Positions 2,391-20,862 of a stretch of 64,000 nt of DNA are shown piece after piece. The first letter of the stretch is position 1; each line of letters opens with the position of its first letter. The notes under the pieces are model-generated. The model was not told the origin of the DNA. It searched no databases and saw nothing but the letters and a program-made list of their open reading frames with translations. The stretch lies in the NCBI GenBank assembly GCA_944388585.1, contig CALXJI010000005.1:96012-160011 (forward strand), read 5' to 3'. Source of the stretch: an uncultured Clostridia bacterium. GTDB taxonomy: Bacteria; Bacillota; Clostridia; TANB77; CAG-465. Made by a program: the position numbers and the translations under genes.

Positions 2391-2392
2391 AC

Positions 2393-3285: not shown

Positions 3286-4247
3286 TTATAATTTTAAGAG
3301 AAATTTTTCAAACACATATTTTAAATAATCTGTTACATTTGATTTTGATACATTGTTATTTGCTACTATATTACTTTCACCTATTTTTTCATTAGTTGCT
3401 TTATCAAAAATCTCAACTTTTCCAACTACTTGATCTATTTCTATTGGACTACTTAATCCTTCATTATATGTAATCACTTGCTCTGTTTCTATATTTTGAC
3501 CTTTATTTAATAATGAATAAACGTCATTTTCTATTCTTGTTTCTAGTTTATCTTTTACATTTTTACTTACTGTAATTTGATCTAAAATTGTATTTGATGA
3601 ACATATTTTTTTGGTTTCATAAGTAGAGAAGCCATAATCAAGTAATGTTTTTGTTTCTTCTGTTCTAATATCTGATGTTGGAGCTTTCATAACAACACTA
3701 ATAAACGTAGTATCGCCTCTTGTAGCGGTAGCAACTAAATTATATAATGCATTCGATGTATATCCAGTTTTTAATCCTGTTGCTCCATCATAATATCTTA
3801 TAAGCTTATTAGTACTACTAAGTCCAAATTCTCCATTTCTTAAAGTGTCCATCCAAATTGATGTATAATTTAAAATATTAGGATGTTTGGTTATTAATTC
3901 CCTAGACATTATTGCTATATCTTTTGCACTAGTATAATGCCCTTCTTCATCTATTCCATGTGAATTCATAAAATGTGTATTTTCCATACCTAACTCTTCC
4001 GCCTTAGCATTCATCATATTTACAAAATTTTCTTCACTTCCACCAATAAGTTCTGCCATAGCTACTGTTACATCATTTGCTGATACTACACATATAGCTT
4101 TTAGTGCATCATCTATTGTTATTTGTTCTCCTTCTTTAAACCAAATTTGCGAACCTCCCATTTCAGATGCTTTTTTACTACATGTTACAGTATCATCATA
4201 TGAAAGTCCACCATAATCTATTTGCTCCATTATTAAAAGCAATGTCA
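3286..4247 (-). CDS. D-alanyl-D-alanine carboxypeptidase (PBP5/Dac family), 3' part of a gene interrupted by the inserted element
   Basis: Begins mid-domain at (M)KVMTLLLIMEQID and contains the SxN motif (SAN) and the KTG motif (LKTGYT). The N-terminal signal peptide and SxxK motif are found 16 kb away at 20593..20862. Confidence 0.8.
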
Positions 4248-5926
4248 TAACCTTCATTATCGCCAGTCAAAAGACACTTCTTTGGACTATTTTTTTGGGC
4301 TTTTAAAAAGCCCAATTTAAAGTTAATCTCATCTATTTCATCAAATTTAAAATAAATTTGTAGTTTTACATTTTTTCTATTATTATCTATTTTTGTAACT
4401 ATTATCTTATCTACTAATAGTTCTAAATATAAATCTAAGTTTTCTCTTTTACTTAAATCTAACTCATCAACTATAACTTTTTTTAAATTTTCTATATACT
4501 TATCAAAGTTTTTCATTTCTTCTTTTTTTTGCTCGTTTTCTTTAACTTTTTCTTTTAAGTTATTTAATTCTATATTTAATTTGTCATTTCTTTCTTTAAA
4601 CTCTTCATCATCTATATAACCATTTAAGTTAAGATTTAATAACTTTTCTTTTTTATTGCTCACATTTTGCATCTTTTTTTCTAAATTAGTATATTCATTA
4701 TTAATCTTTAAGTCTAAATTATTTTTTTGATATATATTTAATAATTTATTTATTATTTTATTTTTATTCATTTCAAATTTAGAAAATACACTTTTAATAA
4801 TTTCATATAGTTCTTCTTCTAACAAAATTGGACTTGCACAAACTTTTACTCCACCATTATCATATCTAGCACATACCCAAACTGGTCTACATTTTCTTTT
4901 TGGTCCAGCTGACCTAATAAAATTGGTTTGGTGTTCACTACATATTAATTTTCCACTAAATCCATATCTATTAGAAAATTTACTTTTATCTGGATTATTT
5001 TCATAAAATTTTTTACTTCTTTTTTCAAAAATCTCATTAGCTTTATTCCAAAGTTCTTCACTCACAATTGGTGGCACTATACTCTCATCATCACATTTTT
5101 TTACTATCCAATCTTTTCTATCATTTCTTACTTGCTTGGAACTCCTATAATCTAATTTAGAAGTAGTATTTGAACAATAATATCCTTTATATTTAGGATT
5201 AACCAAACATCTTTTTAAATTTGTTGGACTAATACGAGTATTATTACTAGTCTTATATCCATTTTCATATAATATGTGTGATATTTTTTCAAATCCATAC
5301 TTGCCAGTAGCATATAGTTCAAATAGTTTTCTTACAACTTCTGCTTCTTTTTCATCTATAACAAGTTTTCCTTTATCTTTTACATATCCACGAATATTAT
5401 TGTTCCCCAATACTCTATTTTTTTCAACAGACCTTTTAAGACCAAACCTTACTCTTTCTGATAGCTTTCTTACTTCATCTTGTGCTATACTTGCCATTAT
5501 TGCAAGTCTTAATTCTGAGTCTGGTAGTATTGTATTTATGTTATCTGTCTCGAAGTACACTCCCACATTTCTTTCTAAAAGTTCTCTAGTATATTTTATA
5601 CTATCTAAAGTATCACGAGCAAATCTACTTATTTCTTTCGTAAGAATTAAATCAAATTTATCTTTTTTTGAGTCTTCAATCATATTTAAAAAATCTTCTC
5701 TTTTTTTTGTACTAGTTCCACTTATTCCCTCATCAACATATCCTTCAATATATGTCCAATTCGAAACACTTTTGATTTTATTTTCATAGTAAAACTTTTG
5801 ATTTTCTAAAGAATTTAGTTGATTTTCTTTTTCAGACGATACTCTTGCATAAAAAGTAACTCTTAAATTCAAGTCATATATGCTTTTACCTGACATCAAT
5901 TCTTTTCTTAGATTTGCAAAGCTCAT
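4196..5926 (-). CDS. Large serine recombinase (resolvase catalytic domain + recombinase domain + zinc ribbon + coiled coil)
   Basis: N-terminal YARVSSEKENQ catalytic serine motif; DEGISGTS; recombinase domain; Cys-rich zinc ribbon; K/E-rich coiled coil. The last ~16 codons and the stop lie in host dac-derived DNA beyond the GTCAT core. Confidence 0.9.
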   Translation of the reverse strand: MSFANLRKELMSGKSIYDLNLRVTFYARVSSEKENQLNSLENQKFYYENKIKSVSNWTYIEGYVDEGISGTSTKKREDFLNMIEDSKKDKFDLILTKEISRFARDTLDSIKYTRELLERNVGVYFETDNINTILPDSELRLAIMASIAQDEVRKLSERVRFGLKRSVEKNRVLGNNNIRGYVKDKGKLVIDEKEAEVVRKLFELYATGKYGFEKISHILYENGYKTSNNTRISPTNLKRCLVNPKYKGYYCSNTTSKLDYRSSKQVRNDRKDWIVKKCDDESIVPPIVSEELWNKANEIFEKRSKKFYENNPDKSKFSNRYGFSGKLICSEHQTNFIRSAGPKRKCRPVWVCARYDNGGVKVCASPILLEEELYEIIKSVFSKFEMNKNKIINKLLNIYQKNNLDLKINNEYTNLEKKMQNVSNKKEKLLNLNLNGYIDDEEFKERNDKLNIELNNLKEKVKENEQKKEEMKNFDKYIENLKKVIVDELDLSKRENLDLYLELLVDKIIVTKIDNNRKNVKLQIYFKFDEIDEINFKLGFLKAQKNSPKKCLLTGDNEGYDIAFNNGANRLWWTFI

Positions 5927-5949
5927 ATTAATTTTCCTCCAACTTTTGT

Positions 5950-6120
5950 ATAAATTTAACTACTTTTTGAAACTAGACTAAGTTCCTCTAGTATTTTATT
6001 ATTAGCATAAATATACATTTCGTAGGTTATATAATTTTTTTCATATAATCTTCTGTTAATTTTTTCTTCAATTTTCAACTCGTTCTTTTCATCTGTTAAT
6101 ATATTTAATTTATCTTTCAA
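5950..6120 (-). CDS. Small ORF (56 aa, TTG start, RBS AGGAGTGG) immediately upstream of and co-oriented with the recombinase gene; candidate regulator or directionality factor
   Basis: Own translation gives MKDKLNILTDEKNELKIEEKINRRLYEKNYITYEMYIYANNKILEELSLVSKSS. It ends 21 nt before the recombinase RBS GGAGG. Below the ORF-track size cutoff. Confidence 0.3.
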
Positions 6121-6214
6121 TATAACCACTCCTAGTTAAATCTTATTAAAGTTTATTATTTTTATTCTAATATAAAAATTATATTATATATATCCATATA
6201 TAGTTTTTTATTTT

Positions 6215-6305
6215 TGTACATTTTGTACATTGGTCTTATAAGTATTGGTACATAAACATTTGTTGTATTACATACATTTGTATCAATGTACAAATAAAAT
6301 GTACA
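6215..6305. repeat. Cluster of TGTACA hexamer repeats (iterons or operators) directly 3' of the primase-helicase gene
   Basis: TGTACA or GTACA at 6215, 6224, 6247, 6287 and 6300, plus CATACA and GTATCA variants. The reverse-complement arrangement tgtacaaaatgtaca recurs at 20428-20441. Confidence 0.5.
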
Positions 6306-9131
6306 TTAATCACAATTAGGTGGATTAGTTCCATAAGGTTGTAATTCTAAATATGGAACTTTATCTTTTTTTACTGCCCATACTATTTCCGTTTTATCTC
6401 TTGAAGTAGGACCTGGCATTTTCTTTCTAATAGTTGCTCTATCACTACCAACTTTTAAATATCCCTCATCTGATAAATGTTTTTGAAGTCCAGTTTTATT
6501 TATAGGAAATTTTATACCTTGTTGTGCATAAAACTTAGATACTTCATTTAGTACAGTTTCTGGGAAAAAATAATAATAGTTATTGTACTCATCTTTTGTT
6601 TCATCTACAAAACCTATAAGAGTTTTATTTTTATTATCTGTTAAATAAGACTCTTGCCAGTTTCTAACTATATATATTTTTCCGGTATTTTCAAGTTGAC
6701 TTATAGCATTAAAAAACATACTTATAGGTTTATTATCTTGTATTTTTAAAGTTTGCTCATTTGCTACAAAATTTAAAATATCCCAACTTTCTTTAAGTAG
6801 TTTCTCTTTATCTTGTTCGCTTATTATCTCATAAGATATTAGAAAGCTAATAAATAATTCATAAGATATTTGTAAGAAACATATTATTTCCGCGGTTCTC
6901 CCATGTAATAAATTATTTGTAATATCATTTCTATATTTTTCAAATTTATCCTTAGCATTATTTTTAATCTTATCAATGTTTGCTATTAGAACTTTAATAT
7001 ATTGTTTCATTGCATAAGATAATTTGTCTTTATTTCTTTGAAGTATAGTTAGTTTATCTAAATCTATACTATCTTTTTTTAAATCAATAATAAAACATCT
7101 AGCTAAACGGCTTTCTGATACCTCTGGAAATGATTCGCCAGTTACTAAACATAGACCTCGTGCTTTATAAGATTTTCTTAAAGTAACATCTACATTTAAT
7201 CTACCTCTAGCACTTCTGTCGCCATAGATAGCTATAACTTTTTCAAGAGTGTTTTTCATCTTTTTAGCCTCATTTGTTTCTGTACTAGGGTAGTAATCAT
7301 CTAATACTACCAAAGTGTCTGCTAATAAGTTACTTCTAACCTCAATACTATTTATTGTGTCTTTGCAACTGCATACAAAGCTATCTTTATCAAATCTACC
7401 AAAATGACAATTTAATAAAGCCGATAATGAACTCTTTCTACTACCACTTACTCCTACAACTGCAATTAAAAAATCTGGTACAATTCCTAAATCATCTAAT
7501 GATGACACTAAAGGAGCTAGATATGTAAAAGCAAATAATGGTAAGGTTATCTTTTTATCTGCTACATCTAAAATGCTATATGATAGTTGCAAACACTCTT
7601 TCAAATCATATTCTTGATTTGTAAATTCATATCTAACTAAACTATCATCAAGATTAACTTTTATAGTATCATCTCCACCAATATTTCCATTGTTGTACAA
7701 ATATACATACTTATCATTTTGTTTTATAAAACCAGTATGTGTATATACAACTTCTTTCTGCATATTTTTAGATACTATTTGTGTAACTTCACGAAGTTTA
7801 TCCTTATTACTTACTCCTGCATTTACTATTGGCGACATATCCCAAGTATTGTTTATTAACCATTTCATAGAGGTAAAATCTTCAATTTTTACTTCAATTT
7901 CATCTAATACATCACCATTACTCAAAACTGCTTTAATTTTATATACTGCTGATTTCTCTCCATTTCCATTATCATATATAATTACTTTACTTATAATTGG
8001 AACAAAATTAGATATTTTCTCTTTCTTTTCATATAGGCCATCTTCTGCAAAGACATAATTACTATTTTCTAGTAGTTCAATGTCCTTTTGATAATCATTA
8101 GGAATACTAGAGTTAGCTTTCTTTTTAACTTCTTTTTCTTTTACTTTTATTACATCTAGCTTATAAAAAATATCACTTTCATAAGCTATTGCTTTACCAC
8201 CAAAAAACATACTTGCCAAATTTGTTGGCTTAGAATCAGGATAGAATATACTTAGCTTGTCTAACAAATAATTAATAAAGCCTTTTGCTATTTCATAATC
8301 TGTTATTACTTCATTTAGTATATATACTAACCTCATCTTATGTTGTTTCTCGCTATGACTAAAACTATAATATGCAAATGTAGGTAATAGATTTATTTGT
8401 TTACAATAGTCAATAATCTTCTCTATTGTAATATGTCTTTTATCATCAGTAGTAAAATTTACTTTCTTTCCATTTTCTTCAATAGCATTATCTATATCTA
8501 TCATATATAGTTGTTGTCCTTTAAAATTTTCTTTAGCATTACCTTTAATACCTGATGGTATAGTTGTTTTTCCTAAAACAATGTTTTGTTTTATTTCATC
8601 TAGTGTATAGCCCTTAAATTGATTTTCATTAATCCTATTTTTTATACCTCCAACTTCATAACCTTGAGGCTTTGTAGAAAATTCAACTTCATCAAACATA
8701 CAAACTATTTTGTCTATTTTTTCTGCCACACTTACTTTAATAGCATTCTTAGATTTTGAATTATTTTGATTGGACTTCCTTTTAGATGTTGATTTACTAT
8801 ATGTAATATTATCATCTATTTGAAAATCTTTTTTAATAATATCAATAGCTTGTTCTTTAGAAACATTTTTATATCTTGCAACAAAATCTACAATATTTTT
8901 ACCAATAAAATTCTTATCTCCAAAATCACTTATATACTTATCTGATACACTAAAAGATGGGTTGGAATCCTTTCTAAATGGACTACTGTAGGCGATACTA
9001 TCGCCTCTAGCTATACCTTCTCCTAAATAATGTTCTACAACTTCTTTATTATCTAGAATACTACACAATTCTTCTATACTCACTTTTCTACCTCCTTTTA
9101 TTAAAAAGGAAACACACTTGATTTTTCGCAA
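6306..9131 (-). CDS. Replication protein: primase-polymerase (degenerate CHC2 zinc-finger-like N-terminus, DxD prim-pol motif) fused to a P-loop NTPase/helicase-like domain
   Basis: SSPFRKDSNPSFSV resembles the DnaG CHC2 motif CPFHxExTPSFxV but with Cys and His replaced. LYMIDIDNA prim-pol signature. Variant P-loop VVGVSGSRKSS. Size and architecture match Pri-Rep proteins of integrative elements. Confidence 0.55.
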   Translation of the reverse strand: MRKIKCVSFLIKGGRKVSIEELCSILDNKEVVEHYLGEGIARGDSIAYSSPFRKDSNPSFSVSDKYISDFGDKNFIGKNIVDFVARYKNVSKEQAIDIIKKDFQIDDNITYSKSTSKRKSNQNNSKSKNAIKVSVAEKIDKIVCMFDEVEFSTKPQGYEVGGIKNRINENQFKGYTLDEIKQNIVLGKTTIPSGIKGNAKENFKGQQLYMIDIDNAIEENGKKVNFTTDDKRHITIEKIIDYCKQINLLPTFAYYSFSHSEKQHKMRLVYILNEVITDYEIAKGFINYLLDKLSIFYPDSKPTNLASMFFGGKAIAYESDIFYKLDVIKVKEKEVKKKANSSIPNDYQKDIELLENSNYVFAEDGLYEKKEKISNFVPIISKVIIYDNGNGEKSAVYKIKAVLSNGDVLDEIEVKIEDFTSMKWLINNTWDMSPIVNAGVSNKDKLREVTQIVSKNMQKEVVYTHTGFIKQNDKYVYLYNNGNIGGDDTIKVNLDDSLVRYEFTNQEYDLKECLQLSYSILDVADKKITLPLFAFTYLAPLVSSLDDLGIVPDFLIAVVGVSGSRKSSLSALLNCHFGRFDKDSFVCSCKDTINSIEVRSNLLADTLVVLDDYYPSTETNEAKKMKNTLEKVIAIYGDRSARGRLNVDVTLRKSYKARGLCLVTGESFPEVSESRLARCFIIDLKKDSIDLDKLTILQRNKDKLSYAMKQYIKVLIANIDKIKNNAKDKFEKYRNDITNNLLHGRTAEIICFLQISYELFISFLISYEIISEQDKEKLLKESWDILNFVANEQTLKIQDNKPISMFFNAISQLENTGKIYIVRNWQESYLTDNKNKTLIGFVDETKDEYNNYYYFFPETVLNEVSKFYAQQGIKFPINKTGLQKHLSDEGYLKVGSDRATIRKKMPGPTSRDKTEIVWAVKKDKVPYLELQPYGTNPPNCD

Positions 9132-11314: not shown

Positions 11315-12016
11315 CTAATTTTTTCCACAATTTTTTTGTTCTAAGAGTTGCACAACAATGTCTGGATATGAATTTTGCATTTGAATAATACTACTATATT
11401 GAAGTTCAACCATTTCAAATTTTTTTGAATCTTCTATTTGTTCACCAAATACTAATTTGTATATTTTAATTATAATATTATGAGCATAATCTAATAAAAT
11501 AGGAATTTCATTATATGCAGGTATTTCATCAGCTTTAAAACTTTTTATTCCCAAATCATAAGATTTATCCAAATGTGCAACATTTTTATCCCTCAAGGTT
11601 TTAAGATTATCTAAAGCTTTCATATTTTCCAATTTTTCTAATTCAGATTTAGCATATTTTATTATTTCTGAATTTTTTTTATTAAGAAGTTTATTACATT
11701 GAACACAATTTAACATATAAAATACTGTAATTGAATCATTACTAGAGTCATTATCATAAATTTTAGCTAATTTCATAAATAAAGAGTATTGTAATCCATC
11801 AATGACAGAACAATAGTACTCTTTATATTTAGGCATTTTACTAAAATCCATACACATTCTATCAAATAATAAATATTGTGATTTAGCAAAAAAAATCTCT
11901 CTATATAGCAAGTCAACTCTCTTTTTAAACTTGTCTATTTCACATTTTTGAATTTTTGTTTTAGTTTCTTCCATAATACTCACGCCGAATTTATATATTC
12001 GACAGCCTCCTCTCAT
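11315..12016 (-). CDS. Hypothetical protein with a HEPN-like Rx4-6H motif (RDKNVAH); possible Abi-like cargo
   Basis: Predominantly alpha-helical; RDKNVAHLDK fits the HEPN catalytic motif. Start ambiguous (M1 or the internal MEETKTK). Confidence 0.35.
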   Translation of the reverse strand: MRGGCRIYKFGVSIMEETKTKIQKCEIDKFKKRVDLLYREIFFAKSQYLLFDRMCMDFSKMPKYKEYYCSVIDGLQYSLFMKLAKIYDNDSSNDSITVFYMLNCVQCNKLLNKKNSEIIKYAKSELEKLENMKALDNLKTLRDKNVAHLDKSYDLGIKSFKADEIPAYNEIPILLDYAHNIIIKIYKLVFGEQIEDSKKFEMVELQYSSIIQMQNSYPDIVVQLLEQKNCGKN

Positions 12017-12366: not shown

Positions 12367-12936
12367 ATGAATTTAGTAGAACCAATTAGAGATTTGAACA
12401 AAATCGAAGAAATGAAAAAAGTATTATTAGAACAAGGAAAAGGCAAAAGAAATTATCTTATTTTCAAAGTAGGTATAAATATTGGTATAAGGGTATCAGA
12501 TATTATAAAGCTTAAAGTAAGTGATATTAGATATGAAAATGGTACTATGCGAGATGACATTACAATTATAGAAAAGAAAACAAATAAAAAGAAGACATTT
12601 AGATTTAATATCGAATTAAAAAAAGAACTAGAAGATTACACTAAACAAATGCAACAATATGAGTATATTTTTAAAAGTAGGAAAGGAGCTAATCAACCTC
12701 TTACGCGCACGCAAGTATATAGATTTCTTAATGATGCAGCAAAAATGGTTGGTATCACTGATAGTATAGGAACTCACACTATGAGAAAGACCTTTGGTTT
12801 CCACAACTATAAAAAATATGCTGATGTTGCTATGTTGCAAACAATATTTAATCATAGTAGCCCTAGTATCACACTTCGATATATAGGTATATCACAAGAT
12901 GAAATCAACAATATGTATGATGACTTTTGCTTATAA
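12367..12936 (+). CDS. Short tyrosine recombinase, FimB/FimE-like (catalytic domain only, 189 aa)
   Basis: KRNYLIFKVGINIGIRVSDIIKLKVSDI parallels FimB ARNYCLTLLCFIHGFRASEICRLRISDI. HxxR box in GTHTMRKTFG. His and Tyr in FNHSSPSITLRY. Confidence 0.8.
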   Translation: MNLVEPIRDLNKIEEMKKVLLEQGKGKRNYLIFKVGINIGIRVSDIIKLKVSDIRYENGTMRDDITIIEKKTNKKKTFRFNIELKKELEDYTKQMQQYEYIFKSRKGANQPLTRTQVYRFLNDAAKMVGITDSIGTHTMRKTFGFHNYKKYADVAMLQTIFNHSSPSITLRYIGISQDEINNMYDDFCL

Positions 12937-12967: not shown

Positions 12968-13011
12968 GTGTCTTAAAATATAAATATGAATATCACTTTT
13001 AGACAAATTAG

Positions 13012-13055
13012 TCAAAAAATGAGAGTAGTACCATAGTATTACTCTCATTTATTCT
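13012..13055. terminator. Bidirectional rho-independent terminator between convergent genes
   Basis: aatgagagta - 12-nt loop - tactctcatt, a perfect 10-bp stem flanked by A-run and T-run. Confidence 0.6.
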
Positions 13056-13066
13056 ATGTAATAAGC

Positions 13067-13603: not shown

Positions 13604-13620
13604 AACCTTTCAACCCCTTT

Positions 13621-14655
13621 TTAATTTTTATATTCTTTATTTTCAATAAATAAGTCTAATATTCTTTCTAATTCTTCCATTAGATTTAATAAATCACTAA
13701 CTTTATATTCTTCACTTAATTTTATCTTTGCTAAAATCATTGACTCATTAGCTTGTCTTTTATTAAATTTTTCAAACTTTATATTACTTTTATTTGAAAA
13801 ATATTTTTCTATTTTATCTTGTAATTTATTTCTTTCATCTTCATTATATTTTAAATTACCATTTTCTTTATTTTCAAAGCGACCTCTAATTCTTAATTCA
13901 TATTTACTTTTATTTATATTTGTTTCAAGATATAAATAATCTAAGAAGTAATTCTTATCTAATCCTCTTATATACCAAGTATAAAATACACTACCTCTAA
14001 CTCTACCAACACCACATTTATTTATTTCATTTTTTTCACTATGACTACAATATACATTTGGTAATTCATATTGTAGATATTGTTCCATACTAATTTCTTT
14101 CAATGAAAACTTTTTAATATTCTTACACTTATATTCTATCAAACTTAAATAATTGTAATAATCAATGTAAATATCATTTTTTATATGATAATTTTCCATT
14201 ATTTCAAGCATAAACTTTCTATCAATTAATACATCTACATCAATTTGATTTGGTTCATAAAACATCTTATAATATGTAGTTATTATATTTTCTTCCTTTA
14301 TTCCTTTATTAATTAATTTATTTTTATATTTGTTTATTTGATTACTATGTTCTGAAGTTAGTTTCTTATCTTCAATTATAATGTATATTGTTTCATTATT
14401 TTCATTTTCAAAACTTATTAAAACATCTATATTTTTATCTTGTTTTAATATTTTTACATTATTATAATCATTGAACTTTAAATTTCTTTTAGTGTTTTTC
14501 TTATTATACTTTTCTATAATTTTATCTAAAAACTTTTTTGATACTTCATACAATTCTGAATTTTCTTCTTTGTGATTAATCCACTCTACCAACCAACAAA
14601 TAAAAGCATCTTGACTAAGCTCCTTAGTCGCATATTTGAATATGTTATTTTCCAT
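13621..14655 (-). CDS. Hypothetical protein, candidate PD-(D/E)xK nuclease fold
   Basis: NIDVLISF ... IYIIIEDKKLTSEHSNQ gives a D...ExK arrangement. RBS GGAGG at 14662-14668. Confidence 0.35.
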   Translation of the reverse strand: MENNIFKYATKELSQDAFICWLVEWINHKEENSELYEVSKKFLDKIIEKYNKKNTKRNLKFNDYNNVKILKQDKNIDVLISFENENNETIYIIIEDKKLTSEHSNQINKYKNKLINKGIKEENIITTYYKMFYEPNQIDVDVLIDRKFMLEIMENYHIKNDIYIDYYNYLSLIEYKCKNIKKFSLKEISMEQYLQYELPNVYCSHSEKNEINKCGVGRVRGSVFYTWYIRGLDKNYFLDYLYLETNINKSKYELRIRGRFENKENGNLKYNEDERNKLQDKIEKYFSNKSNIKFEKFNKRQANESMILAKIKLSEEYKVSDLLNLMEELERILDLFIENKEYKN

Positions 14656-14675
14656 ATAAAAACCTCCTCATATTA

Positions 14676-14692
14676 TATGACAATATGTCATA
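14676..14692. promoter_or_regulatory. Palindromic operator candidate TATGACA-ata-TGTCATA in the divergent promoter region
   Basis: 7-bp perfect inverted arms between the RBS of 13621..14655 and the XRE gene. Confidence 0.4.
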
Positions 14693-14763
14693 CTAATTAT
14701 ACCAATTTTCAACTTTTTTTACAACCCTTTTATTGTTATAATTTAATAAAAGGAGTAGATAGA

Positions 14764-15132
14764 GTGGATAAAATAAAGAAAAACAAAGAAATTTCACCCA
14801 AAAAGAATTTACAAAAAATTAGGGAAGATAATCATTACTCACAAAGAAAAGTCGCTGAAGATAATAATACTTATCAAGAAGTTATATCTAGGTTAGAGTC
14901 TGGAACTAGGACTTCAAATATTGAGTTTATAATGCAATTAGCTAACTATTTTCATTGCTCTACAGACTATCTTTTAGATTTAACAAATGACCCAACTCCA
15001 ATATCTATTTTATCTTCTAAAAGTGATTTAAGCGAAAAAGAAAAGTATATTTTAAGAGAATATAATTCTTTAAGTGATGATAACAAACTAAGATTAGAAG
15101 GCATATTAATTGCATTAAAAAGCATACAATAG
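14764..15132 (+). CDS. XRE-family helix-turn-helix transcriptional regulator (GTG start after AAGGAG)
   Basis: LQKIREDNHYSQRKVAEDNNTYQEVISRLESGTRTSNIEFIMQLANYFHCSTDYLL is a classic HTH_3. The upstream part of the track ORF overlaps the convergent gene and lacks an RBS. Confidence 0.7.
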   Translation: MDKIKKNKEISPKKNLQKIREDNHYSQRKVAEDNNTYQEVISRLESGTRTSNIEFIMQLANYFHCSTDYLLDLTNDPTPISILSSKSDLSEKEKYILREYNSLSDDNKLRLEGILIALKSIQ

Positions 15133-15249
15133 TGTAATAATACTTTTGTATGCTTCTTTTTTCTCCTTTATATCTTAAATTAACTTTCTACTAATAGATA
15201 TAAATTTATATAACTAAGTATAGAAAGTTCTTCTAAATAAAACCTCATT

Positions 15250-15600
15250 TCAATGGTTATTATTTAATTTTATAAAGTTATCAAAAAATATCTTAAACAC
15301 TTTTTCATTATCTATCTCATAAAAGTAATCTATAAAATCATATTCCTTATTATAACTATCTTTCTTAAATATACCAACAATATTTATAGCGAAAAAACCA
15401 CTATGTGTGTTAAAAAATTCTTTTACTACTTTTTCTTTTATATCTCCAATAATACATAAGAATAGTGGAGGTATATTATAGTTTAAATCTTTAAGTTCAT
15501 CACTATATACAATTTTTACATTATCATTTAAAACTATATCTTTTATTATTTCTTTACCAAATACTCCTAATGGAATTACCACTATATCTTGAATTTTCAT
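15250..15600 (-). CDS. Hypothetical protein (116 aa), 4-bp overlap with the upstream gene
   Basis: ATGA overlap coupling with 15597..15974. Confidence 0.45.
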   Translation of the reverse strand: MKIQDIVVIPLGVFGKEIIKDIVLNDNVKIVYSDELKDLNYNIPPLFLCIIGDIKEKVVKEFFNTHSGFFAINIVGIFKKDSYNKEYDFIDYFYEIDNEKVFKIFFDNFIKLNNNH

Positions 15601-15974
15601 CTCTCCTTTTTTATTTCATAAACAATAAATTTTACATTAAGTACAATACTAATACCCTCTAATATTCTAAATGTTTCATTATTTGTTCTTTCCTTAAATC
15701 TATTATTGTTTTTAATTTTAGATAGGTTAATTATTACTATACTATTATTAAAGTTTTTTAGTTCTTTTATTAAGTTATCTAATTTATATGTAGTAAAATA
15801 TTCAACATTATCTTTACCATAAAATATATCATCATCTTTATATAACAATACTTTTGAAGTAGGTAGGTTAAATTCTTTTCTTATAATATCTACATCTTTC
15901 TTTTCCTTATCAAATATTTCCATTTTATATATACTTTCCTTTTTAATTCCTACATCTAACAAAAATAACCCCAT
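15597..15974 (-). CDS. Hypothetical protein (125 aa)
   Basis: Operon partner downstream of the HTH-WYL-like gene. Confidence 0.45.
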   Translation of the reverse strand: MGLFLLDVGIKKESIYKMEIFDKEKKDVDIIRKEFNLPTSKVLLYKDDDIFYGKDNVEYFTTYKLDNLIKELKNFNNSIVIINLSKIKNNNRFKERTNNETFRILEGISIVLNVKFIVYEIKKER

Positions 15975-16071
15975 AATGAGCCTCCAAACTTATTTATTTA
16001 GAGTATATCATTTTGAAGTTATTTTGTATATGAATTTTATACTATGAATTTTTCGCTGGTCTAAAAATGTA

Positions 16072-16761
16072 TTACTTATTTTTTTCTTCATCTAAAAACT
16101 CACACTCTTCATCTAAAATTTTTATATCTTTCATACTACTTAATAAAATTCCAATATTATTATTGAGTGTATTATTTGTTCCTATAACTATATAATTAAA
16201 AGGTGTAAGTACTTTAAATTTCCTATACACAATATATTGTGGAGAGTATATAATATTCTTTCCATTATGTATAAATTGTATCTTTTTCTTTTCTTCTATT
16301 GCTTGTGAAACTATTTCTAAACTATTTACTAATTCCCAATTCTTTGTTTTTTGTTCTTTCATTTTTGCTATATTTGATTTTAGTTTTTCTCTATCAAATA
16401 TATTAATTTGTTTTTCTAATTTATTTACCAAAAGATTTGATGTTTCTTCATTTATATCATTAGCTAACTTTATTTGATTTATAATCATAATAATTTCTCC
16501 TAATGTGAAGTCTATATCTATATTTTTAATATAATAATAACCTTTGCGATTATCATTATATGTAGATATATCATAACCAAACTTTTCTATAAGTAAGTTT
16601 ATATTTCTTCTTATAGTTCTACTATCTATATTTACATCATAATCTTTCTTTATCAATTCTTTTATATCATTACAACTTAATATGTGTTCATCATCACTAT
16701 ATTTTTTTAGTGTATTCAACACATATAGTATATTTCCTTTATTTTCATTTCCTTTTTCCAA
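16072..16761 (-). CDS. Putative transcriptional regulator, N-terminal HTH (HTH_11-like) plus C-terminal WYL-like domain (BrxR/CapW-like architecture)
   Basis: ILYVLNTLKKYSDDEHILSCNDIKELIKKDYDVNIDSRTIRRNINLLIEKFGYDI fits the DeoR/HTH_11 pattern. C-terminal IQFIHNGKNIIYSPQYIVYRKFKVLTPFNYIVIG is WYL-like. Confidence 0.4.
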   Translation of the reverse strand: MEKGNENKGNILYVLNTLKKYSDDEHILSCNDIKELIKKDYDVNIDSRTIRRNINLLIEKFGYDISTYNDNRKGYYYIKNIDIDFTLGEIIMIINQIKLANDINEETSNLLVNKLEKQINIFDREKLKSNIAKMKEQKTKNWELVNSLEIVSQAIEEKKKIQFIHNGKNIIYSPQYIVYRKFKVLTPFNYIVIGTNNTLNNNIGILLSSMKDIKILDEECEFLDEEKNK

Positions 16762-16827: not shown

Positions 16828-17061
16828 TTATAACATACCTTTTCTATTTAAAGTTCTTACAATTTCACTTCCTAAACCTGTTCTTAAAGTTTTAAATATA
16901 GAATTAAAATATATACTCTCTTTTCTATATTTGGTATAGATATAGTCATTACAATTACTCTTATGAGTTTCAATATATAGTTTTATTCTCTTTTGAATTT
17001 CACTATTTTGTGGAATATTACTTAGTATTATTTCTACAATATCTAAATCATCTTCTCTCAT
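16828..17061 (-). CDS. Hypothetical protein (77 aa)
   Basis: 4-bp overlap with the upstream ORF. Confidence 0.4.
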   Translation of the reverse strand: MREDDLDIVEIILSNIPQNSEIQKRIKLYIETHKSNCNDYIYTKYRKESIYFNSIFKTLRTGLGSEIVRTLNRKGML

Positions 17062-17387
17062 AGTAGTCTCCTTTTTAAATCAAATCTTTCCATATACTTC
17101 TTTATTTTTTCTTCACTTAAAGATATAGTCTCTCCATTTTCTTGACCTACCACTAAAAAATCTCCAACTATAATATCTCCAAATTCATATAAAACTAAAT
17201 TAGGAGATAGACTTAATAATTTACCCTCATCATTTATAATAATATCTACATCATCTTCTAACTCTACAATATCTATTAGACCACCTACATACTTTTGTAG
17301 AGTAGATAGGTTATTTTCTATCTCTATTACTTTTGGTTGTTCAAACACTTTTACTAAAATACATCTTAATTTTTCCTTTTTACTCAT
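17058..17387 (-). CDS. Hypothetical protein (109 aa)
   Basis: RBS-preceded ORF; first gene after a 465-bp repeat-rich intergenic region. Confidence 0.4.
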   Translation of the reverse strand: MSKKEKLRCILVKVFEQPKVIEIENNLSTLQKYVGGLIDIVELEDDVDIIINDEGKLLSLSPNLVLYEFGDIIVGDFLVVGQENGETISLSEEKIKKYMERFDLKRRLL

Positions 17388-17853: not shown

Positions 17854-18045
17854 TTAATTCTCTCCTTTATTGTATTGGAATAAATATCTACTTTTTATAA
17901 ATTCATCTAAATCATCTTCTCTAATCATAAAACCTTTACCCATATAGATAGCTTTTAGTTTCTGCTCTGCAATATAACTTCTTATAGTGTGAGGTGTTAC
18001 TTTTAAAATGTCTGCTACTTCTTTTACTTTGTAAATATTAGTCAT
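17854..18045 (-). CDS. Excisionase-family / MerR-like HTH DNA-binding protein (63 aa)
   Basis: VKEVADILKVTPHTIRSYIAEQKLKAIYMGKGFMIREDDLDEF matches the excisionase-family DNA-binding pattern. Confidence 0.6.
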   Translation of the reverse strand: MTNIYKVKEVADILKVTPHTIRSYIAEQKLKAIYMGKGFMIREDDLDEFIKSRYLFQYNKGEN

Positions 18046-18121: not shown

Positions 18122-19696
18122 TTATTTTTTATATAGTTTAGATAATACAATAACCTTTTTATTAAGGTATAAAGAATAAGTCTTTTTCTCTTTTTGATAA
18201 GATAGAATAGAGGAGATAGTTTTATTATTAAGAGAAATATATTTTATACCAATTTTAGATAAGTCTTTAATAAGTTGAGTATCTTTATTAAGATGTCTCC
18301 TTACAAACTTCTCAGTACCATTTAAAATATTATTATAAGATAATCCATTGTTTTTTCTTTCTTCATTTAAAACTCTTAGAGAAGTAATTAAATCTTCAAT
18401 AGTAATATAACCATACTTTTGTAAATCAGTGTTATTAGATAAAATAGTGTATATATATTCAATAGTTTTAATATCTCTATTTTTATATTTATTCTCTAAA
18501 TTACTATTTCTATATATTAGTTGAGAAGAAGTGTTACCCGTGTTCCTTGTAAGTAGTGAGTAAGTTATATTTTTATAATAATTTAATAAGTCCTTAGATA
18601 TAAAGTCTATATTTATAAAATCTTCTTTTAATAAATATGGAATAATTAGAGTAGTAGGTCTTTGTTTAGATTTAAAATAGTTAGTATTATTTTTTACACT
18701 ATCTAATCTTTTAAATATATTTAGTAAGTAGAGTATTTTTATTTTCTTACTATAACCTCTAATTTCTCTAAATATATCTTTTATAGATAGAGTAAGTAGT
18801 ATATTATCTTCTATTATTAAGTAATTATTAGGAGTATGTAAATAATTATATTTTAGTTCTTTTATTATAGGTATAAAATCTATCTTTTCTAAGAGTAGTT
18901 TAAAATTACTATTTTGTTTTAGACTAGTTAGTTTGTTTATTACTTCTAGATTATTTATTATAGTTCTATGTACTATATATCTATCATAAGAAGATATTAT
19001 TCTATCTATATTAGTAGGAGAAAATGCACTTTTTTTAGTATATTTTTTTACATTACTAAAAGTAACTCTATTATTACTCTCTCTAACTATAGAAGTATTT
19101 TTTTTAGTTAGAGTTTTAACATTATTAAATAATAAATAATCACAATACCTACAACCAAACCATTTATCTATATTTTTATTACTATCTTTTTTTATAACAC
19201 TATCTATTATGTACTTATTCATCTTTTGTAAATATCTAGTGTCTTTCTCATATTGTTGGTTAATCTTTACAATATGTTGCAGTTTAAGTAACTCATTAGA
19301 AGAATAAACCACAGTATATTGTTTATTATCTCTATGTTTTATATTATCTAAGTGTGATACTAATTCTAAATTACAAAGTCTATTATCTAATTTATCTTTA
19401 TTAATGTGATTTACCTCATAATCTTTATCTAATAATTCCTTTAATTTAACATCATACCTACTATAAAATTCTATTATTACTCTTTGTAGAGTAGTTACAA
19501 CATTATCTAATTTTCTTAGAACTAAATAATCATTTTCATTTACTCTTACATTGTGTAGTTCCATTATATTTAACAAATATCTAATCAAACTACTATCATT
19601 ATCAATTTTTCCTGAAACACTATTATTTATCATATTATAAATTAAGGTTGTTGTTTCATCATAATACAATAAAAGTGTCATATTATCTTTTATCAT
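18122..19696 (-). CDS. Hypothetical protein (524 aa), N/K/Y/I-rich
   Basis: Long uninterrupted ORF. Its DNA is conspicuously rich in TAG, AGTAG and TTAG on the non-coding strand, unlike flanking genes. Confidence 0.45.
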   Translation of the reverse strand: MIKDNMTLLLYYDETTTLIYNMINNSVSGKIDNDSSLIRYLLNIMELHNVRVNENDYLVLRKLDNVVTTLQRVIIEFYSRYDVKLKELLDKDYEVNHINKDKLDNRLCNLELVSHLDNIKHRDNKQYTVVYSSNELLKLQHIVKINQQYEKDTRYLQKMNKYIIDSVIKKDSNKNIDKWFGCRYCDYLLFNNVKTLTKKNTSIVRESNNRVTFSNVKKYTKKSAFSPTNIDRIISSYDRYIVHRTIINNLEVINKLTSLKQNSNFKLLLEKIDFIPIIKELKYNYLHTPNNYLIIEDNILLTLSIKDIFREIRGYSKKIKILYLLNIFKRLDSVKNNTNYFKSKQRPTTLIIPYLLKEDFINIDFISKDLLNYYKNITYSLLTRNTGNTSSQLIYRNSNLENKYKNRDIKTIEYIYTILSNNTDLQKYGYITIEDLITSLRVLNEERKNNGLSYNNILNGTEKFVRRHLNKDTQLIKDLSKIGIKYISLNNKTISSILSYQKEKKTYSLYLNKKVIVLSKLYKK

Positions 19697-19802: not shown

Positions 19803-20120
19803 TTAATCTTCCTTATTCTTATTATTTTCAAATACTTCACACATTAGAGTAATGCCGGTAGTAAGTCCATCTCTAAAATATAAGTTATCCATAAAAGAAT
19901 TTCTTGCATTAGACATATCCATATAATCTTTTACACAATTTAGTATATTATCATAATCCTTTTTATCTATTGTGTCTTTTAAATACTTATATCTTTTTTC
20001 TAATTTTTCTCCAAATTCATTATAATCTTTTCTTTCATATTTAGTCATCGAAGGTAACCTGCCCTCTAATACATCAAATAGTTGTTGTAAAATTTTTTGT
20101 TCTTCAACTCCATTTTCCAT
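19803..20120 (-). CDS. Hypothetical protein (105 aa)
   Basis: First gene of the long minus-strand operon inside the element's right end. Confidence 0.45.
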   Translation of the reverse strand: MENGVEEQKILQQLFDVLEGRLPSMTKYERKDYNEFGEKLEKRYKYLKDTIDKKDYDNILNCVKDYMDMSNARNSFMDNLYFRDGLTTGITLMCEVFENNKNKED

Positions 20121-20269: not shown

Positions 20270-20349
20270 ATTAACTAGAATTAAACCTCATTAACTCTAG
20301 TTATATTTTTAATTAAATATTTGTATATAAATTTATAAGAAAATATTTG

Positions 20350-20441
20350 TGTACATTAAAATACATTAGTTGTACAAATATATGTATATTAGATTTTATT
20401 TATTTTTATATAGTTTGAAGTTACTTAGTACAAAATGTACA
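20350..20441. repeat. Second cluster of TGTACA hexamers, in the promoter region of the 19803..20120 operon
   Basis: TGTACA at 20350, 20371 and 20436, GTACA at 20428. gtacaaaatgtaca is the reverse complement of tgtacattttgtac at 6215-6229. Confidence 0.5.
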
Positions 20442-20485
20442 AAAAAATTTATATATTATTTTATATTAATATATATAAAAAAAAG

Positions 20486-20543
20486 AACAGTATTTCTACT
20501 ATTCTAAAATTTTACGTATACATATACTGTGTAGAATACTGTT
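20486..20543. terminator. Long inverted repeat (aacagtatttctac ... gtagaatactgtt, 13-14-bp arms, 31-nt spacer) followed by a T-run, just inside the element's right end
   Basis: Read directly from sequence. The hairpin is flanked by an A-run and a T-run, so it can act in both directions. Confidence 0.4.
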
Positions 20544-20592
20544 TTTTGGTCATTTCTTCTATTCTTTCTTCTCTCAAAATCAAAAGTGTCTT

Positions 20593-20862
20593 TTAATAGG
20601 TCATTACTTTAGTAACTGATGCTGGTAACATATGTTCATTTTCATTATTTGCATATAGTATTTTCCCTGTAGTAGGTTCCATTAAAATCTGAGAATAAGA
20701 CTCAAAAGTAAAAGACGGATTTGCAACAGTTGAAATACTACTTTCAATTCCCTCATTTTTTACTTTATATAAATACCCTACTCCCAAAATATAATTACAA
20801 TTTATTACATTTATCAATAACATACAAACTATTATTTTAAAAAACTTATTCACATATTCCAC
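20593..20862 (-). CDS. D-alanyl-D-alanine carboxypeptidase, 5' part (signal peptide plus SxxK active-site motif), truncated by the element
   Basis: Signal-peptide-like N-terminus. Ends ...MLPASVTKVMTY*; the active-site SVTK is followed immediately by the junction. Confidence 0.8.
   Translation of the reverse strand: MEYVNKFFKIIVCMLLINVINCNYILGVGYLYKVKNEGIESSISTVANPSFTFESYSQILMEPTTGKILYANNENEHMLPASVTKVMTY

What the first reader, a model, noticed from the sequence alone, without database searches (positions are those of the whole stretch)
3286..20862. A D-Ala-D-Ala carboxypeptidase (Dac/PBP5) gene is split by a 16.4-kb serine-recombinase element, a candidate skin-like intervening element in a spore-former
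The minus-strand ORF 20593..20862 has a signal peptide and ends ...MLPASVTKVMTY*. The minus-strand ORF 3286..4257 starts (M)KVMTLLLIMEQID... and continues with SAN (SxN) and KTG motifs. Joining the two at the shared GTCAT cores (4243-4247 and 20600-20604) restores one continuous reading frame, ...ASVTKVMTLLLIMEQIDYGG..., of about 406 aa, a normal Dac length. The ~16.4 kb between them starts with a large serine recombinase gene next to the junction. The window is from a spore-former (spo0A, alpha/beta SASP, yqfC, yqfD). In Bacillus, dacB and dacF are compartment-specific sporulation genes. Known intervening elements (skin in sigK, SPbeta in spsM, others in spoVFB, spoVR, gerE) are excised by a serine recombinase in the mother cell to rebuild the gene. 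I do not recall a dac gene reported as a target. If this dac is a sporulation paralog, this would be a new developmentally excised element; otherwise it is a plain gene disruption.
Basis: partly seen in the sequence, partly recalled or inferred. Interest (0 to 1): 0.85.

Follow-up and report, generated by a model that had tools for sequence, protein, structure and literature searches.

The report
Mobile element splitting a dac gene
A 16.4-kb non-viral mobile element cuts a cell-wall (D-Ala-D-Ala carboxypeptidase) gene of an uncultured spore-forming gut Clostridium exactly at its catalytic codon, and it belongs to a widespread, undescribed family of such elements that may switch the gene back on during spore formation, although excision itself has not been shown.

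Summary
A 404-406 aa S11 D-Ala-D-Ala carboxypeptidase gene is split by a 16,356-bp insertion. At least ten related genomes carry the uninterrupted gene, and their alignments break at the junction.

I correct one detail. The crossover is not the GTCAT "core". It is the AA of the catalytic lysine codon of SxxK (4253-4254 and 20609-20610), flanked in attP by a 23-bp imperfect palindrome.

The element has no phage structural genes. It carries a large serine recombinase (LSR), a conserved 54-aa ORF just upstream of it, a primase-like gene and defence-type cargo.

Eight of nine examined LSR lineages (50-98% identity) sit at this same codon of S11 genes, in elements of 3.5-16 kb. The ninth splits the sporulation gene ylmC/ymxH.

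A sigma-E-type promoter pattern precedes 39% of orthologous dac genes against 1.1% of control genes. An A-variant of it precedes this dac, yqfC and the small-ORF/LSR operon.

So a skin-like, mother-cell excision is plausible (about 0.5) but unproven. No excised form was found. Two lineages show frameshifted dac. The element is recently mobile between hosts. I found no earlier report of dac as a target.

The parts
3286..4252 (-). dac C-terminal fragment (host DNA), residues from ~Val88 to the stop; holds the SAN and KTG motifs and the PBP5_C domain
   Evidence: the same fragment in L081 carries Peptidase_S11 + PBP5_C; collinear with intact orthologues up to 4254
4253..4254 (-). crossover dinucleotide AA in attR
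   Evidence: sequence to one side (GGCGATAATGAA) is invariant with the element; sequence to the other side varies with the host and matches the empty site of L001
4255..4277 (-). attP left arm (GTGTCTTTTGACTGGCGATAATG), lying inside the 3' end of the recombinase gene
   Evidence: 16 of 23 bases are complementary to the right arm at 20586..20608
4196..5926 (-). large serine recombinase, 576 aa; its last ~17 codons read across attR into host DNA
   Evidence: Pfam Resolvase/Recombinase/Zn_ribbon_recom; NCBIfam CcrC/CcrB/XisF below cut-off; PDB 3g13 conjugative-transposon recombinase, 145 bits; host-dependent C-terminal tails
5956..6120 (-). conserved small ORF (54 aa from the TTG; 57 aa from the GTG at 6129), candidate recombination directionality factor
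   Evidence: a homologue lies immediately upstream of the LSR in all 8 element types examined; no Pfam, NCBIfam or PHROG match
6140..6167 (-). sigma-E-like bipartite motif GAATAAA-N13-AATAAGAT upstream of the small ORF
   Evidence: same geometry as upstream of yqfC (30333) and dac
6306..9131 (-). 941-aa primase-like replication protein
   Evidence: weak CHC2 zinc finger; phrog_25531 and weak DNA primase
11315..12016 (-). AbiU2 (HEPN) abortive-infection-type cargo gene
   Evidence: Pfam PF18734, E=1e-18
12367..12936 (+). short (189 aa) tyrosine recombinase
   Evidence: Pfam Phage_integrase, E=1e-25; also present in L083
13621..14655 (-). candidate defence gene (PDC-S26-like)
   Evidence: PADLOC E=5.5e-10
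14572..15132 (+). XRE-type HTH regulator (true start probably internal)
   Evidence: Pfam HTH_19/HTH_3
16072..16761 (-). WYL-like regulator
   Evidence: PADLOC WYL, E=1.4e-5
17058..17387 (-). DUF3846 protein
   Evidence: Pfam E=6e-26
17854..18045 (-). HTH_17 / excisionase-type small DNA-binding protein
   Evidence: Pfam PF12728, E=6e-12
18122..19696 (-). 524-aa protein with an HNH_3 motif
19803..20120 (-). DUF6809-like protein
20586..20608 (-). attP right arm (AGTAATGACCTATTAAAAGACAC); supplies the ...VMTY* tail of the N-fragment ORF
20609..20610 (-). crossover dinucleotide AA in attL (first two bases of the SVTK lysine codon)
20611..20862 (-). dac N-terminal fragment (host DNA): signal peptide to Ser-Val-Thr; likely start is the GTG at 20853
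20871..20899 (-). sigma-E-like motif TAATATT-N14-AATAAACT upstream of dac, held at the same position in the close orthologues

Best explanation
SHOWN. The window carries a 16,356-bp non-phage integrative element. A large serine recombinase (LSR) inserted it by attP x attB recombination at the AA of the catalytic lysine codon (SxxK) of an S11 D-Ala-D-Ala carboxypeptidase gene. While integrated, the gene is dead: the catalytic Ser-x-x and the rest of the enzyme are 16 kb apart, and the element supplies no replacement. attL x attR recombination would rebuild the gene exactly. The element is one member of a broad family of 'LSR + small ORF' integration modules. These modules carry unrelated cargo (3.5-16 kb), and all target this same codon in two S11 subfamilies of gut Clostridia.

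INFERRED. The targeted dac is a mother-cell (sigma-E) sporulation gene acting on the spore cortex. The conserved 54-aa ORF is the directionality factor. It is transcribed, with or ahead of the LSR, from a sigma-E-type promoter. The element would then be cut out in the terminally differentiating mother cell, as skin is from sigK. dac is rebuilt there, and the germ-line (forespore) copy keeps the element.

The structural part I hold at about 0.95 and the developmental part at about 0.5.
For: Anatomy and empty sites.

Crossover at the AA of the Lys codon, with a palindromic attP:
- LSR bodies that are 99.4-99.8% identical sit next to host dac DNA that is only 88-91% identical, and the switch in identity falls exactly after GGCGATAATGAA.
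- The attP core AATG-AA-nGTAAT is shared with the L098 type.

Family-level site specificity:
- LSR lineages P0001/window, P0002, P0003, P0007, P0010, P0020 and P0014 (98-53% identity) all lie at the SxxK codon of S11 genes. L104 and L105 are in the opposite orientation.
- This meets the operational criterion for 'regulated gene integrity' of Mageeney et al. 2020: a tight integrase clade that disrupts the same domain position in independent events (PMC7192596).

Link to sporulation:
- The pattern [GT][AC]ATA..-N13/14-CATA...T precedes 28/72 orthologous dac genes versus 8/729 control genes of the same loci (p=4e-25). Sigma-K, sigma-G and sigma-A patterns scored 0/72, and sigma-F scored 1/72.
- In the window, the A-variant of this motif occurs upstream of only 3 of 65 larger genes, one of them yqfC. 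It also occurs upstream of dac and of the small ORF. The yqfC-yqfD operon and the skin RDF CD1234 are sigma-E-controlled in C. difficile (PMC3789822).
- The second target subfamily is closest to B. subtilis DacB (3mfd, 199.7 bits), a sigma-E mother-cell gene. One such gene (L104) has a canonical GAATAAA-N13-CATATATT motif.
- The sister LSR clade splits the sporulation gene ylmC/ymxH.

Architecture: it matches skin, with the recombinase at the edge next to the C-terminal fragment, no shared cargo, and sizes down to a few kb (Galperin preprint).

No decay: the window's split dac shows dN/dS 0.056 against the intact L001 gene, compared with 0.075-0.105 for intact-versus-intact pairs.
Against: - No excision product was found. 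There was no attP junction in viral or JGI metagenome contigs. Those collections hold only one contig with the element, so this negative is weak. The predicted 592-aa excised-form LSR is absent from the protein collection, and none of the 15 listed cluster members has an attP-type tail.
- The element is strain-variable. It is absent from L001, the closest relative found (95% identical Dac). It also moved recently between hosts. It carries its own XRE and HTH_17 regulators, a primase-like gene and defence cargo, as an ordinary mobile island would.
- The LSR is closest to conjugative-transposon and Ccr-type recombinases. The gin paper states that CcrA/CcrB act in both directions without an RDF.
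- The dac of the P0002 lineage has the same +1 frameshift in three samples, and the L103 dac is also frameshifted. Reconstitution there would give no enzyme.
- By sequence, the window's Dac is nearer to a synteny-defined DacF (42% identity, 265 bits) than to B. subtilis DacB (138 bits). DacF-type genes are forespore genes in Bacillus and C. difficile.
- In the window's own clade the -10 box begins with A rather than the canonical C. I chose the pattern after seeing some of the sequences, and promoter calls in 23% G+C DNA are fragile.
- The small-ORF promoters of the L098/L103 and L101 types do not fit the motif.
Confidence: 0.5

Rival explanations
1. Plain site-specific mobile island. The LSR family uses the highly conserved SxxK-coding DNA of dispensable low-molecular-weight PBP genes as a broad-host-range 'safe harbour'. 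The gene is simply knocked out. Excision happens only rarely or for transfer, and has no developmental role.
For: - Recent horizontal spread: the LSR is 99.4-99.8% identical between loci whose flanking dac is only 88-91% identical.
- Strain-variable presence.
- Typical island cargo and regulators.
- Closest structural relative is a conjugative-transposon recombinase.
- Frameshifted dac in the P0002 lineage in three samples, and in L103.
- No excised forms found.
- RepA_N plasmid replication genes in the 4-kb elements.
Against: - Integrases that target coding genes usually preserve them (Mageeney 2020). This family never does.
- Enrichment of a sigma-E-type promoter upstream of the target genes, with a like motif upstream of the small ORF/LSR operon in three element types.
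- The sister clade also hits a sporulation-specific gene.
- The window's split dac shows no relaxation of constraint.
- Minimal 3.5-kb elements with no transfer functions persist.
Confidence: 0.35
2. Reversible episomal switch, of the 'active lysogeny' type. The element excises in dividing cells or in the forespore. It persists as a replicating circle through its primase-like or RepA_N functions. The LSR alone later re-integrates it. Dac activity, and so peptidoglycan cross-linking, would be toggled in a heritable but reversible way.
For: - Replication genes in both large and small elements.
- The window-type Dac is most similar to forespore DacF.
- LSRs integrate efficiently without accessory factors (established knowledge of the family; PMC12286644 abstract).
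- Reversible regulated gene integrity is known at comK and mutL.
Against: No circular form was found. Sigma-F and sigma-G patterns are absent upstream of the dac orthologues. There is no evidence on copy number or replication.
Confidence: 0.1
3. Assembly artefact or chimeric contig that joins unrelated DNA inside dac.
For: The window comes from an uncultured organism whose relatives are all metagenome-assembled genomes.
Against: The same attR junction is assembled independently in many samples (24 contigs read for P0001, L081-L088, L106). The junction has the dyad-symmetric att structure expected of an LSR.
Confidence: 0.01

Closest known systems
skin elements in sigK (B. subtilis SpoIVCA/Skr; C. 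difficile CD1231/CD1234)
   Same: An LSR gene sits at the very edge of the element, next to the C-terminal gene fragment. Cargo is variable and unrelated, and sizes go down to a few kb (2.6-48 kb). Precise joining restores a gene. The host is a spore-former. There is a small accessory gene, and in C. difficile the RDF is sigma-E-controlled.
   Different: The target is a cortex DD-carboxypeptidase, not a sigma factor. Insertion is at the catalytic codon. Excision and its timing are untested here. This element is clearly still moving between hosts, and it has no phage genes.
gin element in gerE of B. cereus (GirC/GirX)
   Same: A non-phage gene-intervening element with an LSR plus a small directionality factor. 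Identical copies in different strains imply recent transfer. Extra recombinase genes lie in the cargo.
   Different: gin excision during sporulation, and GirX function, were shown experimentally; here they are inferred. The target and LSR lineage differ. The att core of gin is a 9-bp consensus, whereas here identity is required only at the AA dinucleotide.
SPbeta in spsM (SprA/SprB) and the yin element in yabG of C. botulinum
   Same: LSR-mediated disruption of mother-cell sporulation genes, with reconstitution on excision.
   Different: Those are prophages or prophage-like. This element has no PHROG structural hits. SPbeta integrase gave no PDB sequence match to this LSR at E<1e-5.
Conjugative-transposon and SCC-type large serine recombinases (CcrA/B/C; PDB 3g13 'putative conjugative transposon recombinase')
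   Same: These are the best sequence matches of the recombinase. The carriers are non-phage elements with accessory cargo.
   Different: All NCBIfam scores are far below the family cut-offs (139 versus 900 bits). The target site is different. No conjugation or mec-type genes are present.
Cyanobacterial heterocyst elements (fdxN element, XisF)
   Same: An LSR (XisF hit, E=2e-22) excises an element from a gene in a terminally differentiated cell.
   Different: Different phylum, developmental programme and target. The score is below the cut-off.

Membership tests
Large serine recombinase (integrase) system | N-terminal resolvase catalytic domain with the active-site serine, plus the recombinase domain and zinc-ribbon/coiled-coil domain | tested here: met
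   Pfam PF00239 (E=3.5e-28), PF07508 (1e-19), PF13408 (6e-6); YARVSS motif read directly in the sequence
Large serine recombinase (integrase) system | Short att sites with imperfect dyad symmetry around a non-palindromic central dinucleotide; no target duplication beyond it | tested here: met
   attP is 23 bp + AA + 23 bp with 16/23 complementary bases. The junction is mapped to AA by host-versus-element sequence discontinuity. The opposite insertion orientation in L104/L105 goes with an inverted attP.
Large serine recombinase (integrase) system | Catalysis of attP x attB integration, and RDF-dependent attL x attR excision | not testable with these tools
   Needs in vitro or in vivo recombination assays.
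Sporulation-specific gene-intervening element (skin / SPbeta / vfbin / gin type) | The element interrupts a protein-coding gene, and precise excision restores one ORF | tested here: met
Sporulation-specific gene-intervening element (skin / SPbeta / vfbin / gin type) | The host is an endospore former | tested here: met
   Spo0A and YqfD above the NCBIfam cut-offs; YqfC E=1e-17; SASP ORF. Sporulation itself has not been observed, because the organism is uncultured.
Sporulation-specific gene-intervening element (skin / SPbeta / vfbin / gin type) | The interrupted gene is a mother-cell sporulation gene | tested here: inconclusive
   For: enrichment of a sigma-E-type promoter pattern upstream of orthologues (28/72 versus 8/729), and sister elements in DacB-like genes. 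Against: the protein is closest to DacF, and the window's own -10 box is a non-canonical A-variant.
Sporulation-specific gene-intervening element (skin / SPbeta / vfbin / gin type) | The recombinase and/or RDF is expressed from a sporulation sigma-factor promoter | tested here: inconclusive
   A sigma-E-like A-variant motif lies upstream of the small ORF in the window, L089/L095 and L104/L105, with boxes conserved and spacers diverged. It is absent in the L098/L103 and L101 types.
Sporulation-specific gene-intervening element (skin / SPbeta / vfbin / gin type) | Excision occurs during sporulation, in the mother cell | not testable with these tools
   Searches for excised forms found nothing, but those collections hardly sample this organism.
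Prophage or defective prophage | Phage structural, packaging or lysis genes | tested here: not met
   PHROGs gave only primase- and HNH-type hits. No relative was found in IMG/VR.
S11 D-Ala-D-Ala carboxypeptidase (PBP5/DacA/DacB/DacF group) | SxxK, SxN and KTG motifs, Peptidase_S11 and PBP5_C domains, signal peptide | tested here: met
   Motifs are read in the rebuilt protein. Pfam domains are on the C-fragment. PDB PBP5-type hits reach E=4e-55. All NCBIfam equivalog models (DacD, DacA and others) score below their cut-offs, so no specific paralogue name can be assigned.

The most novel reading that the evidence does not exclude
A large, undescribed family of minimal 'serine recombinase + small factor' cassettes acts as sigma-E-timed, mother-cell-specific on-switches. 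The genes switched are spore-cortex DD-carboxypeptidases of both the DacB-like and DacF/A-like kinds, and in a sister clade YlmC/YmxH, across uncultured gut Clostridia. Programmed DNA rearrangement would then be a common layer of control over cortex maturation and spore heterogeneity in the gut microbiota, well beyond sigK.
Probability: 0.4. Interest if true: 0.8.

Novelty: new member of a known kind. Interest (0 to 1): 0.62.

Why it matters
If excision is developmental, dac (and ylmC/ymxH) would join sigK, spsM, spoVFB, spoVR, gerE and yabG as genes rebuilt by programmed DNA rearrangement. It would also show that the phenomenon is common in uncultured, low-G+C gut Clostridia, where sporulation drives transmission between hosts. 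It would link mobile elements to cortex cross-linking, and so to spore heat resistance and germination.

Even if it is a plain insertion, two things are useful. First, the family is a clean natural series of orthogonal LSRs with mapped attB/attP pairs and a candidate small RDF, which are sought-after genome-engineering parts. Second, the split gene is an annotation trap: dac 'pseudogenes' in metagenome-assembled genomes.

Tried and rejected
- GTCAT as the crossover: rejected. Host-specific bases begin 9 nt earlier, right after GAA, and the L089 attL/attR pair differs inside that 'core'.
- Prophage or satellite origin: nothing in IMG/VR with the LSR, and no PHROG structural hits.
- Classifying the Dac by synteny with spoIIA (dacF) across the 80 loci: only the Bacillaceae locus L066 shows it, so this is uninformative for Clostridia.
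- Sigma-F/G reading of the dac promoter: the real DacF of L066 has GTATA-N15-GGCGAGAAT. The window has nothing similar, and the sigma-G and sigma-F patterns scored 0/72 and 1/72.
- Calibrating sigma-G on the SASP promoter of the window: no clean canonical match, so abandoned.
- My first motif count in the window (6 observed versus 3.6 expected) was circular and weak. I replaced it with the orthologue-versus-control test.
- Evidence of excision in nature: attP pattern scans, a control scan, an exact look-up of four predicted excised-form LSR proteins, and C-terminal tails of cluster members. All were negative, but sampling is poor.
- AlphaFold complex or fusion of the small ORF with the LSR: not accepted by the tool.
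- Homologue search with the small ORF: only three near-identical hits, too few for a profile or model.
- An apparent truncation of the dac C-fragment in L082 turned out to be a scaffold gap of Ns.
- Literature: no dac target in Abe 2014, Abe 2017, Douillard 2023, Mageeney 2020 (text and held supplements) or Galperin 2022. Table 2 of Mageeney 2020 is not held as text, so its 19 novel targets could not be read directly.

Full report
OBSERVATION

The minus-strand ORF 20593..20862 ends ...MLPASVTKVMTY*. The minus-strand ORF 3286..4257 starts MKVMTLLLIMEQ... and carries the SAN and KTG motifs. Joined, they give one 406-aa frame. It is 404 aa from the more likely start, the GTG at 20853 that follows the RBS GAGGTGG. 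The frame has the SxxK, SxN and KTG signature of S11 DD-carboxypeptidases.

Between the two fragments lie 16,356 bp. Their first gene, next to the C-terminal fragment, is a 576-aa large serine recombinase (LSR) with Resolvase, Recombinase and Zn_ribbon_recom domains.

The split is not a chance arrangement. A scan of one genome per species found the uninterrupted gene in L001 (95% aa identity), L002 (93%), and L003-L009 and L025 (73-79%). The blastn alignments of these loci to the window jump from 20600 directly to 4254 (to 4248 in two loci).

The organism is an uncultured gut Clostridia bacterium with about 23% G+C. It encodes Spo0A (340.8 bits), YqfD, YqfC and an alpha/beta-type SASP.

WHERE THE CROSSOVER REALLY IS

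Three observations place the exchange at an AA dinucleotide, at 4253-4254 in attR and 20609-20610 in attL.

1. LSR genes that are 99.4-99.8% identical to the window's occur next to host dac DNA that is only 88-91% identical. The switch from element-type to host-type sequence falls exactly after ...GGCGATAATGAA. In L081-L088 the following bases (AGTTATGACTTTACT...) are those of the empty site of L001.
2. For the same reason, the LSR proteins of one 90% cluster share their body but differ after ...LLTGDNE (GYDIAF..., SYDFTF..., SNDTSF..., NNDTSF...).
3. With AA as the centre, attP reads GTGTCTTTTGACTGGCGATAATG-AA-AGTAATGACCTATTAAAAGACAC. This is a 23-bp imperfect inverted repeat (16/23). A distant relative (L098) has the analogous GGTAAC-CTACAATG-AA-TGTAATCA-GTTACC.

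The AA is the first two bases of the catalytic lysine codon of SxxK. The predicted attB is ...GTT ACT AAG GTT ATG ACA TTG..., and the protein join (...SVTKVMTLLL...) is unchanged. The 3' end of the LSR gene contains the attP left arm and reads on into host DNA, so its last ~17 codons depend on the host.

WHAT THE ELEMENT IS

It has no phage structural, packaging or lysis genes by PHROGs. It has no relative in IMG/VR. It encodes:
- the LSR;
- a 54-aa ORF 29 nt upstream of the LSR;
- a 941-aa primase-like protein;
- AbiU2;
- a PDC-S26-like candidate defence gene;
- a WYL-like regulator;
- a short tyrosine recombinase;
- an XRE regulator;
- an HTH_17 (excisionase-type) protein;
- DUF3846 and DUF6809 proteins, and an HNH-motif protein.

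The LSR's nearest solved relative is a 'putative conjugative transposon recombinase' (3g13, 145 bits). Its best NCBIfam models are CcrC and CcrB, far below their cut-offs. It is therefore a non-viral integrative island. It is absent from L001, the closest relative found (95% identical Dac).

A FAMILY DEDICATED TO THIS SITE

I looked up the genomic context of nine LSR lineages found with the window's protein. Eight of them lie at the SxxK codon of an S11 gene:

| LSR lineage | Identity to window LSR | Element | Loci |
|---|---|---|---|
| P0001 / window | 98% | 16 kb | L081-L088 |
| P0002 | 72% | ~5.2 kb: CYTH, guanylate kinase | L095-L097 |
| P0003 | 71% | ~7.3 kb: glycosyltransferase, phosphoesterase | L089-L094 |
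| P0007 | 55% | ~4 kb with RepA_N | L098-L100 |
| P0010 | 54% | ~4.4 kb | L103 |
| P0020 | 53% | ~3.5 kb, one cargo gene | L104 |
| P0014 | 53% | left end beyond the fetched locus | L105 |

In L104 and L105 the element is inverted relative to dac, as expected if attP is inverted around its central dinucleotide.

The targets belong to two S11 subfamilies. The window type (ASVTKVMT) is 42% identical (265 bits) to a DacF defined by synteny (dacF-spoIIAA-spoIIAB-sigF in Lederbergia, L066). The second type (ASTTKIMT) has B. subtilis DacB (3mfd) as its best solved relative, at 199.7 bits.

Every element has a homologue of the small ORF immediately upstream of the LSR. The core of the family is L-x-L-x-I-E-x-x-I-N-x-x-L-[YF]. 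It has no match in Pfam, NCBIfam or PHROGs.

The ninth lineage, the 585-aa P0057 clade, is very abundant (listed in 422 index blocks). It instead splits a ylmC/ymxH-family sporulation gene next to an rRNA operon.

IS THE TARGET A SPORULATION GENE?

Sequence similarity alone cannot assign the compartment. In Bacillus, dacB is a sigma-E mother-cell gene, dacF is a sigma-F/G forespore gene, and dacA is vegetative. In C. difficile, the known sporulation DD-carboxypeptidases CD1291 and CD2141 are forespore genes.

I therefore tested promoters. I took the published description of sigma-E promoters. My own knowledge of the B. subtilis consensus is kmATATT-N14-CATACAhT. [quoted passage not shown]

The pattern [GT][AC]ATA..-N13/14-CATA...T occurs in the 100 nt upstream of 28 of 72 orthologous dac genes. 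It occurs upstream of only 8 of 729 other genes in the same loci (Fisher p = 4e-25). Sigma-K, sigma-G and sigma-A patterns scored 0/72, and sigma-F scored 1/72. Eleven of the 28 hits share one sequence, so roughly 16 are independent.

In the window's own very A+T-rich clade, the same two boxes sit at a fixed position (-46), but the -10 box starts with A: TAATATT-N14-AATAAACT. In that clade this A-variant precedes about 8 of 10 dac genes, against roughly 4% of other genes.

In the window, the A-variant occurs upstream of only 3 of 65 larger genes. One of these is yqfC, whose C. difficile orthologue has a mapped sigma-E promoter. It also occurs upstream of dac, and upstream of the small ORF/LSR operon (GAATAAA-N13-AATAAGAT, 6140-6167). 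The L089/L095 and L104/L105 elements have it upstream of their small ORFs too, with conserved boxes and diverged spacers. The L098/L103 and L101 types do not.

This is suggestive and in silico. The pattern was fixed after I had seen part of the data.

EVIDENCE AGAINST A DEVELOPMENTAL SWITCH

- No excised form was found. A control scan showed that the DNA collections searched hold only one contig with the element, so this negative is weak.
- The element moved recently between hosts and is strain-variable.
- It has its own regulators and a Tn/Ccr-like LSR. The gin paper states that CcrA/CcrB act without an RDF.
- The dac of the P0002 lineage carries the same +1 frameshift 45 nt after the junction in three independent samples. 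The L103 dac is also frameshifted. Rebuilding those genes would not give an enzyme.
- By contrast, the window's split gene is intact. Its dN/dS against the uninterrupted L001 gene is 0.056 (dS 0.46), as low as between intact genes (0.075-0.105). A recent insertion would give the same result.

MECHANISM, WITH SHOWN AND INFERRED STEPS MARKED

Shown:
- LSR-type insertion at the AA of the catalytic Lys codon;
- inactivation of dac while the element is integrated;
- exact restoration on attL x attR recombination;
- a family-wide dedication to this site;
- co-inheritance of a small ORF with the LSR.

Inferred:
- The small ORF is the directionality factor.
- It and the LSR are transcribed by sigma-E RNA polymerase in the mother cell.
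- The element is excised there as a circle, and dac is rebuilt and expressed from its own sigma-E-type promoter to trim cortex peptides.
- The forespore chromosome keeps the element.

I put this at about 0.5. The plain mobile-island reading (dac as a conserved, dispensable landing site) gets about 0.35. A reversible episomal switch gets about 0.1.

COMPARISON WITH WHAT IS KNOWN

In architecture this is closest to skin. There the recombinase also sits at the edge next to the C-terminal fragment, no cargo is shared, and sizes range from 2.6 to 48 kb. It is also close to the non-phage gin element of gerE, which has an LSR plus the small factor GirX and shows recent transfer between strains.

It meets the structural criteria of that class, and the operational 'regulated gene integrity' criterion of Mageeney et al.. 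The defining functional criterion, sporulation-specific excision, could not be tested.

I found no report of dac or ylmC/ymxH as targets in the papers and supplements searched. Verdict: a real, well-defined feature. It is a new member, and in fact a new and widespread family, of gene-intervening LSR elements. Its developmental role is plausible but unproven.

Noticed in passing
L101:9745-11855 (also L102): A sister LSR clade (P0057, 51% identical, 585 aa, listed in 422 index blocks) has its own small upstream ORF. It splits a ylmC/ymxH-family sporulation gene: the C-fragment matches TIGR02888 positions 36-76, E=1.5e-9. An rRNA operon lies directly next to it. I know of no report of this target either.
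   Followed up: partly
L095:11670-11790, L096, L097; L103:9690-10730: The interrupted dac of the P0002 lineage has an identical +1 frameshift (GATTCACGGTAAAATG) 45 nt after the junction in three independent samples. The L103 dac C-fragment is also frameshifted. Some interrupted dac genes are decaying.
   Followed up: yes
window 1-4254 versus 20600-30396, compared with L001: Identity to the element-free relative L001 is 97.3% on the C-fragment side of the insertion but only 87-89% on the N-fragment side. This suggests a recombination boundary at or near the element, for example acquisition of the element together with flanking DNA.
   Followed up: no
window 21907-24943: A variable region lies upstream of dac. 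Two paralogous genes (23520..24266 and 24276..24926, minus strand) have no counterpart in L001, and 21.9-22.8 kb is also rearranged among relatives.
   Followed up: no
window 26321-27051: The 228-aa gene 26321..27007 (minus strand) is the only larger gene in the window preceded by the strict sigma-E-type pattern (TAATAAA-N14-CATATAAT, 44 nt upstream). It is a candidate sporulation gene of unknown function.
   Followed up: no
window 4196-4252: The recombinase ORF runs across attR. Its last ~17 residues are encoded by host dac DNA in another frame and differ from host to host. After excision the ORF would be 592 aa, ending ...GDNESNDLLKDTFDF...KF.
   Followed up: yes
L104:5099-9894 and L105:8001-9896: Minimal elements of about 3.5 kb (one cargo gene + small ORF + LSR) sit in DacB-like genes in the opposite orientation to the window's element. 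The L104 dac has a canonical GAATAAA-N13-CATATATT motif 87 nt upstream.
   Followed up: partly
window 11315-16761: The cargo includes AbiU2 (HEPN), a PDC-S26-like candidate defence gene, a WYL-like regulator and a 189-aa tyrosine recombinase that lacks an N-terminal domain. The element doubles as a small defence island.
   Followed up: partly
L098:8253-8993, L103:6072-6755: The ~4-kb dac-intervening elements carry a RepA_N plasmid replication initiator, so the excised circles might replicate as mini-plasmids.
   Followed up: no
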